Positions 3,572 to 7,986 of a DNA stretch of 12,009 nt are shown here, piece by piece. Below the pieces are notes generated by a model. That model saw only the letters and a program-made list of their open reading frames with translations, was not told the origin of the DNA and made no database searches. Position 1 is the stretch's first letter, and every line of letters starts with the position of its first letter. The stretch is from a virus (taxonomy: Duplodnaviria; Heunggongvirae; Uroviricota; Caudoviricetes), in the IMG/VR virus record IMGVR_UViG_2537562173_000012; one strand, 5' to 3'. Both the position numbers and the translations under genes were made by a program.

Positions 3572-4288
<717 letters not shown>

Positions 4289-4295
4289 CACGTAA

Positions 4296-4733
4296 ATGAT
4301 TAAAGAACGTATTTCTTATATCATTCCGATTGCGATGGATGAAGGCAACCCAGTAACTCCAGTTCTTATCTATGAAATGGATAAAGACTCCCATGAAGTG
4401 GATCTATCATTTGGCGCTTTTTTTATCGGCCTTAAGGCTACAAAAAAATATTCCATAGGCATTGAGGTTTTCAATGCTCAAGAAATACCGATACCAATTG
4501 ACACAAAACTGTACTCCAACCATAAGTTTTTTACGGTAGCAGAAGCCAACGATGGAGAAACCATCGTATCAACTTCTATGAGAATTAACTTCCCAAGGGT
4601 GAAAATTATCAAGCCTGGGATATTCGAAGTTAGAGCATCACTGGTTAATCCTGATAAAGGCGAAGTAATTGATGTAAAAAGTTCGTTTTTTGACGTGAAG
4701 ATAACAGGATCAGTTCGCGATGAGTTTAGATAA
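4296..4733 (+). CDS. Hypothetical protein, first gene of a cassette in the rexA/rexB position
   Basis: 145-aa ORF starting 8 nt after the cI stop on the same strand, with no obvious SD (possible coupling to cI). It does not resemble RexA, no catalytic motif was recognised, and the stretch looks more A+T-rich than its neighbours by eye. Confidence 0.6.
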   Translation: MIKERISYIIPIAMDEGNPVTPVLIYEMDKDSHEVDLSFGAFFIGLKATKKYSIGIEVFNAQEIPIPIDTKLYSNHKFFTVAEANDGETIVSTSMRINFPRVKIIKPGIFEVRASLVNPDKGEVIDVKSSFFDVKITGSVRDEFR

Positions 4734-4839
4734 CAAGGTTGCTCAGCTTCGTCCAAATCAAAACATATCTCGCCCAATTGGACACTATTCCACTGATGAT
4801 GCATACTCACGGCATGGTGGAGGAAACGGCGGAGGTAAC

Positions 4840-5091
4840 ATGCTTGAGGCTAGAGTTGCAAAGCTAGAGTCTGATGTTGAATACATCAAGCGCGATCTCG
4901 CTGAAGTAAAGTCAGATATAAAATCTGTAGATTCTCGTCTGTCAGGTATTGAGACAAGCATTAGCTCAGCAAAAATCACCATCAAGGCATCTGCGGTCGT
5001 TGTCAGTTTCGTGTTCGCATTTTGCGCCTACATTTTTGGAAGTTATGTTTCCAAAATCCTTGATGCCTTAAACGGACTCGTTCTTAAGTAA
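4840..5091 (+). CDS. Hypothetical small membrane protein (coiled-coil plus C-terminal TM helix), second gene of the cassette
   Basis: GGAGG SD at 4831-4835 before the ATG at 4840 gives an 83-aa product. The same frame is open from ATG 4720, giving the 123-aa form in the ORF track. Heptad-like LEARVAKLESDVEYIKRDLAEVKSDIKSV is followed by a hydrophobic stretch AVVVSFVFAFCAYIFGSYV. A terminator follows directly. Confidence 0.55.
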   Translation: MLEARVAKLESDVEYIKRDLAEVKSDIKSVDSRLSGIETSISSAKITIKASAVVVSFVFAFCAYIFGSYVSKILDALNGLVLK

Positions 5092-5098
5092 CACACAA

Positions 5099-5124
5099 CC
5101 CGGCCTCAGCGCCGGGTTTTCTTT
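5099..5124 (+). terminator. Intrinsic terminator ending the cI-cassette transcript
   Basis: CCCGGC (5099-5104) pairs with GCCGGG (5111-5116) around a 6-nt loop, followed by TTTTCTTT. Confidence 0.7.
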
Positions 5125-5281
5125 ACCTCACGATCCCCTTCACCCAATAACACATAACCAATTGTATTTATTTGAAAATTAATAGATACAACTCACTAAA
5201 CATCGCAATTCAGATCTCTCGATCACCTCCCAAGCCACACACCCCTGCAAAAAAATAAATCTATATAAAAAACATACAGAT

Positions 5282-5344
5282 AACCATCTGCGGTGATAAA
5301 TTATCTCTGGCGGTGTTGACATAAATACCACTGGCGGTGATACT
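5282..5344 (+). promoter_or_regulatory. OL3-OL2-OL1 operators and the PL promoter
   Basis: OL3 at 5282-5298, OL2 at 5302-5318 and OL1 at 5326-5342 match the lambda operator consensus. PL -35 TTGACA (5316-5321) and -10 GATACT (5339-5344) are 17 bp apart. Confidence 0.9.
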
Positions 5345-5412
5345 AAACACATCAGCAGGACGCACTACTCACCAGTGCGGTGAATATACAACGATTCAAG
5401 CAAGAATCTACG

Positions 5413-5427
5413 GCGCTGACAAAGCGC
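5413..5427 (+). promoter_or_regulatory. nutL boxB hairpin (GACAA loop, P22 type)
   Basis: GCGCT GACAA AGCGC is a perfect 5-bp stem with a 5-nt loop, about 70 nt downstream of PL. It matches the P22-type boxB I recall and differs from the lambda GAAGA/GAAAA loop. Confidence 0.6.
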
Positions 5428-5592
5428 AATAACCAAAGTGAACTTTGGGGTGTGGTGAAGGATTCATGGACGGGAATATGTCGCACGTAAAGCGGCGAGG
5501 CCTGCGGGACTATTGCCGAATTGAAGTAGGCCGAAACAGGTCGAAATGGGTCTCCCACCTACCACACCACCAAAGTTCATCAGGAGGTCTAT

Positions 5593-5976
5593 ATGACACG
5601 CAGAACTCAGTTCAAAGGCAATTCACGTTCTCGTCGTCGTGAGCGTTTAAAGGCAAAGGCATTAGCTAACGGCGTACTGGCCCGCGAAGAAGCAATAAGT
5701 TCAGAAGTATTACACCGCCCTACTCTAAGCAGAGCGCAGATTCAGGCTAAAGGTACTCACGAAACGCCTGAGCGCATAGAAGACGCTAAGCCAATTAAGT
5801 TCATAGCACAGGACGTGATCTGGCAACAGAAAGAATACAGACGCAATCTGGAGCGAGCGGCCATTGTGTACGCGAATGAGTTTGGACATAAGCAACCAGA
5901 AACTGGTGTATGTCTTCCAAACGTAGCCATTTACGCGGCAGGCTACCGGAAATCAAAACAACTGACGGCGAGGTAA
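5593..5976 (+). CDS. N: N-like transcription antitermination protein (P22 gp24-like arginine-rich motif)
   Basis: 127-aa ORF with AGGAGG SD 5 nt before the ATG. N-terminal arginine-rich motif NSRSRRRERLKAKALA. First gene downstream of PL and nutL. C-terminus VAIYAAGYRKSKQLTAR resembles what I recall of P22 N. Confidence 0.8.
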   Translation: MTRRTQFKGNSRSRRRERLKAKALANGVLAREEAISSEVLHRPTLSRAQIQAKGTHETPERIEDAKPIKFIAQDVIWQQKEYRRNLERAAIVYANEFGHKQPETGVCLPNVAIYAAGYRKSKQLTAR

Positions 5977-5978
5977 TT

Positions 5979-6371
5979 ATGGGTCAGGAAGAAAAATATG
6001 AGCTTAAAAAGCTCATTGGAGAAGACGCCATAGAAGAAATTGCAGCATTAACAACAGCTATAAAGAATATTAGGTATGCGCTAAATACGCTTATCTCCTC
6101 ATGCGACAAAAATAGCAGGGAATTTTTGATACTTGGCGCAGCTCTAGGAATAGTTGATGCGGCAACGCTTCACCTAATTACTCATGACGATATTCTTATT
6201 GAGCCGTATGAAACATTACTGCTTGTCAGGCAAAAAATGGCTGATGCCGCAGCAAATGGAGACCTTCAACTTTACATCGACTTAAGGAAAGTATTAAGGC
6301 GAATGGTCAGAACTGAAGGAGATATCCCCCTGAACGATGCTAAACAAGGCATACAAGCAAAGCTGGAATGA
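5979..6371 (+). CDS. Hypothetical protein (accessory gene downstream of N)
   Basis: 131-aa ORF from the ATG at 5979, 2 nt after the N stop, with a GAGGT SD. The ORF track shows an upstream TTG-initiated extension that I consider unlikely. Confidence 0.6.
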   Translation: MGQEEKYELKKLIGEDAIEEIAALTTAIKNIRYALNTLISSCDKNSREFLILGAALGIVDAATLHLITHDDILIEPYETLLLVRQKMADAAANGDLQLYIDLRKVLRRMVRTEGDIPLNDAKQGIQAKLE

Positions 6372-6430
6372 CCTTATCCTGATGAAGTATCGAAAGCACA
6401 GTCAGCAATTAGCAAAGCTCTTGGGGAAGA

Positions 6431-6592
6431 ATGATGAATAAGAAATACATTGTTGAAGTTATAGATCGAGAAACGAAAGAAGTAATTAAACATTTCGAAT
6501 TTGATAATTATAGAAAAGCTGACCGCGTCGAAGAAGGATTGTTGCGACAAAGTAATCTCGAAAAATTTTATGTTGTCATGCGATGCGAATAA
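6431..6592 (+). CDS. Hypothetical small protein
   Basis: 53-aa ORF (MMNKKYIVEVIDRETKEVIKHFEFDNYRKADRVEEGLLRQSNLEKFYVVMRCE) with a GGGGAAG SD. It is below the track's length cutoff. Confidence 0.45.
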   Translation: MMNKKYIVEVIDRETKEVIKHFEFDNYRKADRVEEGLLRQSNLEKFYVVMRCE

Positions 6593-6724
6593 GCGCCTAT
6601 AGCAGATTTACGAGTCTGCTATGTGAGCAATGTCGCTCGTAACTAAACAGGAGCCGACTTGTTCTGATTATTGGAAATCTTCTTTGCCCTCCAGTGTGAG
6701 GGCGATTTTTTTAACGGAGGAAAT

Positions 6725-7693
6725 ATGAGTGAAGTAACAGATTTAGTTGTTATTGAAAAAGCAAATGCAATGACTGTATTTCAGTCTGCCGACCAGATTG
6801 AAGAAATCCTTCAAAAGGTTGAACGTGAAGTTATGTCCTTTGTTCCTGATATCACAACGGCAAGGGGCAGAAAGGAGATCGCTTCTCTGGCGTATAAAGT
6901 TGCGCAGACGAAAACATATCTCGATGGTCTTGGCAAAGACCTTGTTGCTGAACTGAAGGAAATTCCAAAGCTAATTGATGCTAACCGCAAGACAGTGCGT
7001 GATCGCCTTGATGAGCTGAAAGCCAAGGCGCGCCAGCCTCTTACTGATTATGAGGAGGAGCAGGCACGGATTAAAGCCGAAGAAGAAGCTAAGGCAGCAG
7101 CCGAAGCTCTCGCAAAGCAAATTGAGTCTGACCATGAAATAGCGATTTTGATGGATCGCGAATTTGACCGCCAAAGAGAAGAGGCAAGACTCAAAGCGGA
7201 GCAGGAAAAGCGAGAGCATGAAGAACGCTTAAAAAGAGAAGCTGAAGAGAAAGCCAGAGCAGAAGCCGAAGCAAAGGCAAAAGCCGAAATTGAAGCAGCA
7301 GCAAGGCGAGAAGCAGAAGCTAAGGCCGCAGCGGAACGTGCAGAGCGTGAACGCATTGAAGCCGAGCAACGAGCACAGCGCGAAGCAAAAGAGGCAGCAG
7401 AACGAGCTGAAAGAGAAAAGCAGGCAGCAATTGAAGCAGAACGCCGAAAAGCACAGGAGGAGGCAGAACGAATCCGGCGCGAGGCTGAAGCAAAAGAGCA
7501 AGCCAGAATAGCAGAAGAAAAAAGAATCAAGGACGAAGAAGAGCGTAGAGCAAAGGATAAAGCTCACCGGAAAGAAGTAAATAACAAAATACTTGCTGAC
7601 CTTATCAAGGTTGGTGCATCAGAAGATGTTGCTAAAAATATCATAACAGCCATCGTAAAAGGCGAAGTATTCGCAACAAAAATAACCTACTAA
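6725..7693 (+). CDS. Hypothetical protein with a long E/K/A/R-rich coiled-coil central domain (TolA domain II-like composition)
   Basis: GGAGG SD 5 nt before the ATG at 6725; 322 aa. Residues about 110-290 are almost entirely Glu, Lys, Ala and Arg in EAEAKAKAE-type repeats, flanked by ordinary N- and C-terminal domains. Confidence 0.75.
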   Translation: MSEVTDLVVIEKANAMTVFQSADQIEEILQKVEREVMSFVPDITTARGRKEIASLAYKVAQTKTYLDGLGKDLVAELKEIPKLIDANRKTVRDRLDELKAKARQPLTDYEEEQARIKAEEEAKAAAEALAKQIESDHEIAILMDREFDRQREEARLKAEQEKREHEERLKREAEEKARAEAEAKAKAEIEAAARREAEAKAAAERAERERIEAEQRAQREAKEAAERAEREKQAAIEAERRKAQEEAERIRREAEAKEQARIAEEKRIKDEEERRAKDKAHRKEVNNKILADLIKVGASEDVAKNIITAIVKGEVFATKITY

Positions 7694-7717: not shown

Positions 7718-7849
7718 ATGATTTACGCAATCGCGGGAGGCGCTCGCATGGGTGCCTTCCAACTAAATGAATCTTTACTTGAACGAATCACCCGTAAATT
7801 ACGTGACGGATGGAAAAGAGTTGAGGTCTTATTATGCGCAATGAAATAG
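7718..7849 (+). CDS. cIII: CIII-like protein (FtsH inhibitor that stabilises CII)
   Basis: 43-aa ORF with an AAGGA SD. Its core ESLLERITRKLRDGWKR matches the conserved amphipathic helix of lambda CIII as I recall it. Confidence 0.7.
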   Translation: MIYAIAGGARMGAFQLNESLLERITRKLRDGWKRVEVLLCAMK

Positions 7850-7986
7850 CCATCAATCACCAGATGCTTCGTGCAGCGCAAAACAAAGCAGTAATAGCCA
7901 GATTTATTGGTGATTCAAAAATGTGGCTTGAAGCAAATAAAGCGATGAAATCAGCTATCAACCTTCCGTGGTATCGCAGGAAATGA
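7834..7986 (+). CDS. kil: Kil-like small protein (host cell-division inhibitor family)
   Basis: 50-aa ORF with a GAGG SD, overlapping the cIII 3' end by 16 nt, in the position of kil. It contains ARFIGDSKMWLEA, which resembles the lambda Kil motif I recall. The call is tentative. Confidence 0.5.
   Translation: MRNEIAINHQMLRAAQNKAVIARFIGDSKMWLEANKAMKSAINLPWYRRK

What the first reader, a model, noticed from the sequence alone, without database searches (positions are those of the whole stretch)
5979..6592. Two unrecognised genes in the ral/sieB slot directly after N
A 131-aa ORF (5979-6371) and a 53-aa ORF (6431-6592) occupy the position where lambdoid phages typically place anti-restriction or exclusion morons. 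Neither resembles Ral or SieB as I recall them. Small early genes here are often host-takeover or anti-defence factors.
Basis: inference. Interest (0 to 1): 0.4.

Follow-up and report, generated by a model that had tools for sequence, protein, structure and literature searches.

The report
Two uncharacterised early phage accessory genes
Right after the antiterminator gene N of a lambda-like prophage sit two real, conserved small genes of unknown function from already catalogued phage families. They are joined by the scar of an old deletion and are neither Ral nor SieB, so the locus is ordinary but functionally open.

Summary
Both ORFs are real. ORF1 (5979-6371, 130 aa) belongs to the HK620 HkaQ family (PHROG 7374, E 6e-79). 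ORF2 (6431-6592) is PHROG 6949, the same as mEp043 gp45. Both are under purifying selection (dN/dS 0.17-0.21 and about 0.05). Each occurs in about 1.7% of complete E. coli genomes.

They lie in lambda's ral/sieB segment, bounded by the conserved 3' end of N and a terminator element 100% identical to lambda 33925-34011. Neither matches Ral, SieB, N, or any Pfam, NCBIfam, PADLOC or PDB entry. Both co-occur with Ral elsewhere, so they do not replace it.

- **Deletion scar:** ORF1's last 12 codons and the "spacer" come from a microhomology deletion. It fused hkaQ to the 3' third of a PHROG 1273 gene, ORF2's usual translationally coupled partner.
- **Conserved position:** HkaQ always starts just after N's stop codon, from E. 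coli to Yersinia. In diverged lineages it is followed by a convergent SieB-type gene.
- **Expression (inferred):** both lie between pL and the first intrinsic terminator, so they are probably early lytic genes, not lysogen exclusion genes.

Function stays unknown. The most likely role is a small early protein that binds host or rival-phage targets.

The parts
5316..5344 (+). pL promoter (TTGACA-17-GATACT) within lambda-like OL operators
   Evidence: 10 of 12 consensus matches. Region 5097-5374 is 90% identical to the lambda OL/pL region.
5361..5427 (+). nutL (933W type)
   Evidence: 91% identical over all 67 nt to the nutL annotated in phage 933W.
5593..5976 (+). Antiterminator N (127 aa, 933W type). 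Its last ~65 nt (5912-5976) form a block conserved among unrelated N alleles and mark the left edge of the variable slot.
   Evidence: Pfam N_peptide 2.8e-15. 98.7-99.6% identical to 933W N. Conserved 3' block shown.
5979..6371 (+). ORF1: HkaQ-family gene (PHROG 7374), 130 aa. Codons 1-118 are canonical; codons 119-130 are read out of frame from the remnant of a PHROG 1273 gene.
6328..6333 (+). Deletion junction: CCCTGA microhomology shared by the hkaQ 3' end and the middle of a PHROG 1273 (XkdD/Y8K6-like) gene
   Evidence: Three-way DNA alignment with HK620 hkaQ and the intact gene of E. coli VG38-53E1.
6334..6433 (+). Frameshifted 3' remnant of a PHROG 1273 gene (...MLNKAYKQSWND/YPDEVSKAQSAISKALGEE*), with a further 1-nt deletion after 6373. 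It retains the Shine-Dalgarno sequence and the overlapping stop/start for ORF2.
   Evidence: The intact partner is named XkdD/Y8K6 family by PGAP and matches PHROG 1273.
6431..6592 (+). ORF2: PHROG 6949 gene (same as mEp043 gp45), 53 aa from ATG 6431 or 52 aa from ATG 6434. Predicted beta-beta-alpha-beta mini-protein.
6598..6623 (+). 11-bp hairpin directly after ORF2, with no T-run. It travels with ORF2 in most related loci.
   Evidence: Fold z = -3.65 for 6585-6724. Co-occurrence scored as 'pre_el'.
6625..6711 (+). Conserved right edge of the variable slot, containing a strong intrinsic terminator (stem 6684-6705 plus a T-run). It is the equivalent of the lambda terminator just upstream of ea10; the name tL2a is from my memory.
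   Evidence: 100% identical to lambda 33925-34011. Annotated 'terminator' in HK97, HK75 and mEpX1. Terminator scan.

Best explanation
The interval holds two independent, horizontally shuffled accessory genes of the leftward early (pL) operon of a lambda-immunity, 933W-N-type prophage. They sit in the hypervariable segment bounded by the conserved 3' end of N and a lambda-identical terminator element.

**ORF1.** It is a member of the narrow HkaQ family: a helical protein of about 120 aa whose conserved core is a helix-loop-helix (residues ~20-80). The core carries a hydrophobic small-xxx-small helix and an invariant IVDAATLHL-x2-H-x-D-x-L-x-EP motif (the fifth position is I, or V in one homologue). 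The gene is always placed just after the N stop codon, with its Shine-Dalgarno sequence inside the last N codons.

**ORF2.** It is a 52/53-aa soluble beta-beta-alpha-beta mini-protein. It is normally the translationally coupled second gene of a two-gene cassette (PHROG 1273 then PHROG 6949) and is the last gene before the terminator.

**The scar.** In this prophage a microhomology-mediated deletion joined hkaQ codon 118 to the last third of the PHROG 1273 gene. That removed whatever lay between them and left ORF2 without its partner.

**Expression (inferred).** Both genes lie between pL/nutL and the first intrinsic terminator (6684-6705). They should therefore be transcribed with N immediately on infection or induction, without needing antitermination, and be silent in the repressed lysogen.

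**Function (inferred, not shown).** They most likely act during lytic development as small stoichiometric binding proteins. The probable targets are host or resident-prophage proteins (counter-defence or host takeover). They are unlikely to be enzymes or exclusion factors that protect the lysogen.
For: - **Identity and coding status:**
- **Slot boundaries:** N 3' block; terminator element identical to lambda; lambda's own content of the slot.
- **No intervening terminator or own promoter:** the terminator scan shows no strong one between pL and 6684 (only a weak 5-pair hairpin match inside N), and no promoter above the shuffle expectation.
- **AT-rich composition:** 35-43% GC against about 50% in N, typical of mobile accessory genes.
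- **Scar:**
- **ORF2's partner:** a full-length PHROG 1273 gene with an overlapping or abutting stop/start in 64 of 72 scorable IMG/VR loci. ORF2 is followed by the hairpin and terminator element in most loci.
- **HkaQ position:** always directly after N. All 38 scorable IMG/VR loci share the junction ...GCGAGGTAATTATG, downstream of at least 6 different N alleles. The same 2-nt spacing is found in a 64% lineage and in Yersinia.
- **Small, non-enzymatic look:** no family, defence or PDB hit. The ORF2 model has pLDDT 93 with a generic mini-fold shared with many tiny uncharacterised phage proteins. ORF1 is helical at pLDDT 68 with no fold match.
Against: - No experiment or literature bears on function (searches found nothing).
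- The expression timing is inferred from consensus scans only. Rho-dependent termination within the interval cannot be excluded.
- ORF1 carries an invariant D/H/H/D/D/E cluster that could be a metal or catalytic site, so 'non-enzymatic' is a guess.
- ORF2 has lost its coupled partner and carries D47Y at an otherwise invariant Asp, so it may be decaying here.
- ORF1's hydrophobic helix (Kyte-Doolittle mean over 19 residues 2.03) leaves a membrane location possible.
Confidence: 0.5

Rival explanations
1. HkaQ (ORF1) is an early 'escape' factor. It would neutralise SieB/HkaP-type abortive superinfection exclusion proteins, whether encoded next to it or by resident prophages. That makes it a separately encoded analogue of the Esc polypeptide that lets P22 and lambda bypass their own SieB.
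For: - In every diverged HkaQ lineage the gene is followed by a convergent gene that cannot be read from pL.
- Bona fide SieB (PF14163 / PHROG 1301) follows it in the Symbiopectobacterium, Yersinia and two metagenome lineages, three of them with an 8-nt 3' overlap.
- A 94-aa YmfI-like gene follows it in the 64% lineage.
- HkaP, annotated 'putative superinfection exclusion', follows it in 15 of 41 E. coli-type loci.
- Early expression is what an escape factor needs.
- The hydrophobic small-xxx-small helix could dock onto the SieB transmembrane helices.
- The SieB/Esc/sas paradigm is described in PMC12197685.
Against: - Convergent sieB directly after N is the normal lambda layout without HkaQ: 43 of 47 lambda-type loci. 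The synteny may simply reflect slot architecture.
- The same N class abuts a convergent SieB without HkaQ in 4 loci.
- A 50%-identical HkaP homologue sits in the nin region with no HkaQ.
- The convergent partners are not homologous to each other.
- There is no profile similarity between HkaQ and SieB.
- This window has no SieB or HkaP at all.
Confidence: 0.15
2. HkaQ is a functional partner of N, for example a stabiliser against proteolysis or a cofactor of the antitermination complex. It would be made in fixed ratio with N by translational coupling.
For: - The 2-nt stop-start spacing, with the SD (GAGG) inside the last N codons, is conserved from E. coli to Yersinia despite only 44% HkaQ identity. 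Synonymous sites in the N C-terminal codons are saturated (window against the 64%-identity lineage).
- HkaQ is never found anywhere except behind N.
- It is associated with N proteins ending ...CLPxVAxxAAGxRKSxxLTAR.
Against: - 933W, which carries an N 99.6% identical to this one, and many other phages lack HkaQ. N therefore works without it.
- Two lineages have 12- and 37-nt gaps.
- The conserved N 3' end is an obvious homologous-recombination anchor, which would keep any first-slot gene adjacent to N.
- The database label 'antitermination N domain protein' has no HMM support.
Confidence: 0.1
3. One or both ORFs are anti-restriction proteins that functionally replace Ral.
For: Same slot as lambda ral. 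Early expression. Small size.
Against: - No similarity to Ral, with a working positive control.
- HkaQ coexists with Ral in the same slot, and ORF2 does so in 17 of 79 loci, so they are not alternatives.
- Neither protein is strongly acidic (pI 5.1 and 6.6), unlike DNA-mimic anti-restriction proteins.
Confidence: 0.07
4. They are lysogen-expressed morons (superinfection exclusion or defence genes) that protect the host.
For: The slot hosts SieB, HkaP and gp17-type exclusion genes in relatives. ORF1 has one hydrophobic helix.
Against: - Both are co-oriented with pL, which is repressed in lysogens.
- No upstream promoter above chance; the only internal match scores 9 of 12, and the shuffles give more.
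- Known exclusion genes of this slot are convergent or have their own promoter.
- No PADLOC hit.
Confidence: 0.06
5. In this particular prophage the pair is a decaying leftover. ORF1 would be a truncated fusion and ORF2 an orphan whose partner was deleted, neither doing anything any more.
For: Deletion scar, a further 1-nt deletion in the remnant, and the window-specific D47Y in ORF2.
Against: - ORF1 loses only its last two residues.
- The same hkaQ-scar-ORF2 arrangement is kept with intact reading frames in at least 10 complete E. coli genomes and 7 IMG/VR contigs with different N alleles.
- The exact 130-aa protein is on 14 contigs.
Confidence: 0.1

Closest known systems
HK620 HkaQ (NP_112050; PHROG 7374), also present in the H-19B-type Stx1 prophage of E. 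coli H19
   Same: 98-99% identical over residues 1-118. Same position 2 nt after N, with the same junction sequence.
   Different: The canonical protein is 120 aa ending IPLTK and, in HK620 and H19, is followed by the convergent hkaP. Here the last two residues are replaced by a 12-aa out-of-frame tail and hkaP is absent. No function is known for any member.
mEp043 gp45 / PHROG 6949 (52-53 aa hypothetical protein)
   Same: 94-96% identical. It is also the last gene before the hairpin and terminator element and sits upstream of the Sf6 gp33-like gene.
   Different: In mEp043 and about 89% of scorable loci it overlaps the stop codon of a full-length PHROG 1273 gene. Here that partner is reduced to a frameshifted remnant. 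No function is known.
Lambda Ral (PF11058) and SieB/Esc (PF14163)
   Same: They occupy the same N-to-terminator segment of the pL operon. Ral is likewise a small early protein.
   Different: No sequence or profile similarity. SieB is convergent to pL and membrane-bound. Both ORFs coexist with Ral or SieB in other phages rather than replacing them.
Small early phage inhibitor proteins in general (anti-defence or host-takeover mini-proteins)
   Same: Size, early operon position, narrow taxonomic range, mosaic mobility and lack of enzymatic motifs. The ORF2 fold recurs in many tiny uncharacterised phage proteins.
   Different: No target, phenotype or homology to any characterised inhibitor has been shown. 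This is an analogy of kind, not a membership.

Membership tests
HkaQ family (PHROG 7374) | Full-length match to the family profile | tested here: met
   E 5.9e-79, residues 1-119 on profile positions 1-119 of 120. 98-99% identical to HK620 HkaQ.
HkaQ family (PHROG 7374) | Located immediately downstream of N, with the start 2 nt after the N stop | tested here: met
   Also true in diverged lineages.
HkaQ family (PHROG 7374) | Canonical C-terminus (...GDIPLTK, 120 aa) | tested here: not met
   The window copy ends ...GDIPLNDAKQGIQAKLE (130 aa). The tail is read from the remnant of another gene.
PHROG 6949 (mEp043 gp45-like) | Full-length match to the family profile | tested here: met
   E 2e-38, residues 2-53 on profile positions 1-52 of 52. 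26 invariant columns across 10 homologues.
PHROG 6949 (mEp043 gp45-like) | Translationally coupled to an upstream full-length PHROG 1273 (XkdD/Y8K6-like) gene | tested here: not met
   The partner is present in 64 of 72 scorable loci. Here only a frameshifted ~100-nt 3' remnant remains.
Ral (antirestriction, PF11058) | Match to the Ral profile | tested here: not met
   No hit at E<=1 for either ORF. The same model scores a genuine Ral at 4.4e-44.
SieB (PF14163) | Match to the SieB profile; N-terminal transmembrane helices; orientation convergent to pL | tested here: not met
   No Pfam hit. hhalign of HkaQ against SieB gives probability 0.1%. Both ORFs are co-oriented with pL.
Antiterminator N ('antitermination N domain protein', the name given to ORF1 by PGAP/nr) | Match to the N_peptide or other N profiles; arginine-rich RNA-binding motif | tested here: not met
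   No Pfam or NCBIfam hit for ORF1 or for the 148-aa database version. ORF1 has no Arg-rich N-terminus. The longer database versions start at an upstream ATG that overlaps N out of frame.
Known anti-phage defence proteins (PADLOC-DB) | Match to any defence-system model | tested here: not met
   0 families for both ORFs at E<=0.1.
Anti-defence or host-takeover early proteins (functional class) | Demonstrated inhibition of a host or prophage defence, or binding to a host target | not testable with these tools
   Only position and inferred timing support this. No anti-defence profile library or complex prediction was available.

The most novel reading that the evidence does not exclude
HkaQ is a previously unrecognised, N-coupled early 'escape' protein that disarms SieB/HkaP-type abortive exclusion. 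It would be a stand-alone counterpart of the Esc polypeptide. Phages that have lost the linked exclusion gene, as here, would keep it as a counter-defence against resident prophages. ORF2, with its usual PHROG 1273 partner, would be a second, independent two-protein early effector.
Probability: 0.15. Interest if true: 0.55.

Novelty: new member of a known kind. Interest (0 to 1): 0.25.

Why it matters
The N-proximal segment of lambdoid pL operons is a recognised hot spot for genes that decide phage-phage and phage-host conflicts, such as Ral and SieB/Esc. HkaQ is carried by HK620, by H-19B-type Stx1 prophages of O26 EHEC and by about 2% of E. coli genomes, yet nothing is known about it.

Two results here give concrete, cheap hypotheses for genetics in HK620 or lambda hybrids. 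First, HkaQ's position after N is conserved from E. coli to Yersinia. Second, it is recurrently followed by convergent SieB-type genes.

In itself the locus is an ordinary example of lambdoid mosaicism. It changes no current view unless a function is found.

Tried and rejected
- **Exhaustive sequence search for ORF1.** HMMER against 1.84 billion representatives gave only 7 hits. Two of them (776 and 1334 aa, six stretches each) are repeat artefacts in Calx-beta and PKD proteins, not homologues.
- **Profile search.** It added only two short relatives. The scan of species-representative genomes found a single locus, in Yersinia pekkanenii.
- **Fold searches.**
  - ORF1 against PDB: nothing below E 0.77, and the model is only pLDDT 68.
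  - ORF2 against BFVD: only uncharacterised mini-proteins, none below E 1e-3.
  - afdb50 was not available.
- **ORF1 as a membrane protein.** The Kyte-Doolittle 19-residue mean is 2.03 for residues 49-67. By my hand calculation with the Hessa biological scale the helix is about +2.8 kcal/mol, because of D60 and H65. AF2 also packs it as the core helix, so this is left open.
- **MazG- or HD-like metal enzyme idea.** It came from weak fold hits and the HxxxHDD motif. The defining motifs are absent, so it was rejected by eye.
- **Programmed -1 frameshift fusing N to HkaQ.** The hkaQ frame is open for 69 nt upstream into N, but no slippery heptamer is present in 5900-5976, so this was rejected.
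- **Asymmetric dependence of HkaP on HkaQ.** All 15 close HkaP loci carry hkaQ, but they form one ~99%-identical DNA block. A 50% HkaP homologue sits elsewhere without HkaQ, so this is not independent evidence.
- **Literature.** Searches for hkaQ, accession numbers, PHROG ids, and HK620 or lambdoid accessory and anti-defence terms found no functional data. The only hkaQ mention uses the hkaP/hkaQ intergenic region as an insertion site.

Full report
**Setting**

The window is the early region of a lambdoid prophage, with the leftward operon on the + strand. The main features are:
- lambda-like cI at 3575-4288 and cro on the minus strand;
- pL at 5316-5344;
- a 933W-type nutL at 5361-5427 (91% to the annotated 933W site) and N at 5593-5976. 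Region 5352-5974 is 98.7% identical to 933W.

Downstream of the finding lie:
- a strong intrinsic terminator (stem 6684-6705 plus a T-run);
- a 322-aa coiled-coil gene (6725-7693);
- cIII (7718-7849) and kil (7834-7986).

**Observation check**

Both ORFs exist at the stated coordinates. ORF1 is 130 aa. ORF2 is 53 aa from ATG 6431, or 52 aa from ATG 6434, which is the start most annotations use. They are genuine genes on three counts.
- They match PHROG 7374 (5.9e-79) and PHROG 6949 (2e-38) over their full lengths.
- ORF1 has dN/dS 0.17 against a 64%-identical homologue (dS 1.5) and 0.21 against a 52% one. ORF2 has dN/dS 0.05, with synonymous sites saturated in the other comparisons.
- ORF1 DNA occurs in 96 and ORF2 DNA in 90 of 5426 complete E. 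coli genomes. They occur in 41 and 79 IMG/VR contigs.

The exact 130-aa ORF1 and the exact 52-aa ORF2 are already in public protein collections. The latter is EHG00171.1 of E. coli cloneA_i1.

**What the slot is**

Window 6625-6711 is 100% identical to lambda 33925-34011, just upstream of ea10 in the leftward direction. It is annotated 'terminator' in HK97, HK75 and mEpX1.

The left boundary is the last ~65 nt of N. This block is nearly identical downstream of at least six otherwise unrelated N alleles. Between these two anchors, relatives carry a shuffled set of genes:
- HkaQ
- HkaP (convergent)
- SieB (convergent)
- Ral
- a 933W L0079-like gene
- a PHROG 1273 gene
- ORF2

This shuffled set is documented. 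GC content drops from about 0.50 in N to 0.39-0.43 in ORF1 and 0.35 in ORF2.

**ORF1**

It is the HK620 hkaQ gene (98-99% identity over residues 1-118). It is also present in the H-19B-type prophage of strain H19.

The family is extremely narrow.
- An exhaustive HMMER search of 1.84 billion representatives found five true relatives plus two repeat artefacts.
- A profile search added two more.
- Among 185,579 species-representative genomes, only Yersinia pekkanenii has one.

No similarity or structure search identifies it.
- Pfam, NCBIfam, PADLOC and PDB-sequence searches give nothing.
- AF2 gives a helical model of moderate confidence (pLDDT 68) with no significant structural neighbour.

The conserved core across five lineages is residues ~20-80. 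It comprises AI-x-NIR, then a hydrophobic helix with a small-xxx-small pattern, then the invariant IVDAATLHL-x2-H-x-D-x-L-x-EP motif; the fifth position is I, or V in one homologue. The short lineages (92-93 aa) consist of little else.

The database name 'antitermination N domain protein' has no HMM support. The longer 148/158-aa versions simply start at an upstream ATG in the hkaQ frame that overlaps N out of frame.

**The scar**

The family normally ends ...GDIPLTK (120 aa). In the window, homology to hkaQ stops at 6333. From there the sequence is the 3' third of a PHROG 1273 (PGAP: XkdD/Y8K6 family) gene. The join is at a CCCTGA microhomology (6328-6333) and is out of frame. ORF1 therefore acquires 12 foreign codons and stops at 6369-6371.

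The remnant (6334-6433) has a further 1-nt deletion after 6373. It still ends ...SKAQSAISKALGEE* with the stop overlapping the ORF2 start. So the apparent 59-nt intergenic spacer is a pseudogene fragment.

The same arrangement occurs in at least 10 complete E. coli genomes and 7 IMG/VR contigs, behind different N alleles.

**ORF2**

It is the same as mEp043 gp45. Homologues of 72-96% identity occur in E. coli, Salmonella, Atlantibacter and Cronobacter, with 26 invariant columns of 53.

In 64 of 72 scorable IMG/VR loci it is preceded by a full-length PHROG 1273 gene of 89-120 aa as called (longest ORF). The body of that gene varies, but its C-terminus (...AI[SRKA]KA[LI]G[ED]E) and stop codon overlap or abut the ORF2 start. 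It is consistently the last gene before a conserved 11-bp hairpin (6598-6623) and the terminator element.

Here the partner is destroyed, and ORF2 carries D47Y at a position that is Asp in every other full-length homologue.

**Synteny of HkaQ**

All 38 scorable IMG/VR loci have the junction ...GCGAGGTAATTATG, with the N stop 2 nt before the start. The diverged lineages keep the layout, as listed below.

| Lineage (identity to ORF1) | Gap after N | Next gene |
|---|---|---|
| 64%, metagenome | 2 nt | Convergent 94-aa YmfI-like gene overlapping the 3' end |
| 52%, Symbiopectobacterium | 37 nt | Convergent SieB |
| 43%, metagenome | 12 nt | Convergent SieB, 8-nt overlap |
| 44%, metagenome | N not on the contig | Convergent SieB, 8-nt overlap |
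| 44%, Yersinia pekkanenii | 2 nt, after an N ending ...CLPEVAKFAAGFRKSESLTAR | Convergent SieB, 8-nt overlap |
| E. coli lineage | 2 nt | Convergent HkaP in 15 of 41 loci |

This suggests an ancestral N > HkaQ > < exclusion-gene module. It motivates the hypothesis that HkaQ is an escape factor analogous to Esc (paradigm summarised in PMC12197685).

The evidence is not decisive, for four reasons.
- Lambda-type sieB abuts N with no HkaQ in 43 of 47 loci.
- The same N class abuts a convergent SieB without HkaQ in four loci.
- A distant HkaP homologue lies in a nin region without HkaQ.
- HkaQ and SieB profiles are unrelated.

**Expression and mechanism**

Shown:
- there is no strong intrinsic-terminator-like site between pL and 6684 (the scan lists only a weak 5-pair hairpin at 5895-5907 inside N);
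- there is no promoter-like site above the shuffle expectation upstream of either ORF;
- both ORFs are co-oriented with pL.

Inferred: both are co-transcribed with N before any antitermination is needed, and both are silent in the lysogen. That argues against a lysogen-protecting exclusion role and for a role in the first minutes of lytic growth.

Both coexist with Ral in other phages. HkaQ does so, and ORF2 in 17 of 79 loci. Neither matches the Ral profile, which scores a genuine Ral at 4.4e-44. A Ral-replacement role is therefore unlikely.

My best guess, at moderate-to-low confidence, is that both are small stoichiometric binders of host or rival-prophage proteins.

**Verdict**

They are members of catalogued but uncharacterised families in a well-known hypervariable region.

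What this analysis adds is the deletion scar, the orphaned state of ORF2, and the conserved N-HkaQ-(convergent exclusion gene) synteny. Interest is low to moderate.

Noticed in passing
window 4296-5115: The rexA/rexB position downstream of the lambda-like cI holds two overlapping ORFs. The first is 4296-4733 (145 aa, PHROG 5893). The second is 4720-5091 (123 aa, PHROG 6136), with a coiled coil, a C-terminal hydrophobic helix and weak XhlA, holin and CorA-like hits. A terminator follows at 5100-5115. This is a candidate lysogen-expressed two-gene exclusion or defence cassette replacing RexAB.
   Followed up: partly
window 6725-7693: A 322-aa Glu/Ala/Lys-rich coiled-coil protein (Sf6 gp33-like, PHROG 1376; sometimes annotated 'TolA') lies between the terminator and cIII. 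The mechanical ORF start (TTG 6671) runs through the terminator, so ATG 6725 behind GGAGG is the likely start.
   Followed up: partly
window 5912-5976: The last ~65 nt of N (...CLPNVAIYAAGYRKSKQLTAR*) are near-identical behind at least six otherwise unrelated N alleles, and the motif persists in Yersinia. This is a conserved N C-terminal domain that doubles as the left recombination anchor of the variable slot.
   Followed up: partly
window 6598-6711: An 11-bp hairpin without a T-run sits directly after ORF2 (6598-6623). It is followed by an 87-nt element 100% identical to lambda 33925-34011 that contains a strong terminator. The element occurs in about 400 phage records; matches to the 684-nt ORF1-ORF2 query that contains it occur in about 40% of complete E. 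coli genomes, and ORF1 and ORF2 themselves account for under 2% each. The fold z-score is -3.65, and there is no Rfam family.
   Followed up: partly
window 5979-6371 and database entries: PGAP/nr call HkaQ 'antitermination N domain protein'. No Pfam or NCBIfam model supports this. The 148/158-aa database versions use an upstream ATG that overlaps N out of frame.
   Followed up: yes
window 6569-6571 (ORF2 codon 47): ORF2 has Tyr where every other full-length homologue has Asp (D47Y), in a prophage where its coupled partner gene is deleted. This may indicate relaxed constraint.
   Followed up: no
L011-L013 (about 4430-4714, minus strand); L206 3759-4145: A 94-aa YmfI-like protein (PHROG 8894, weak GhoS hit) is convergent to and overlaps the 3' end of the 64%-identity HkaQ homologue. 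A related ORF also appears near the Yersinia locus. Its function is unknown.
   Followed up: no
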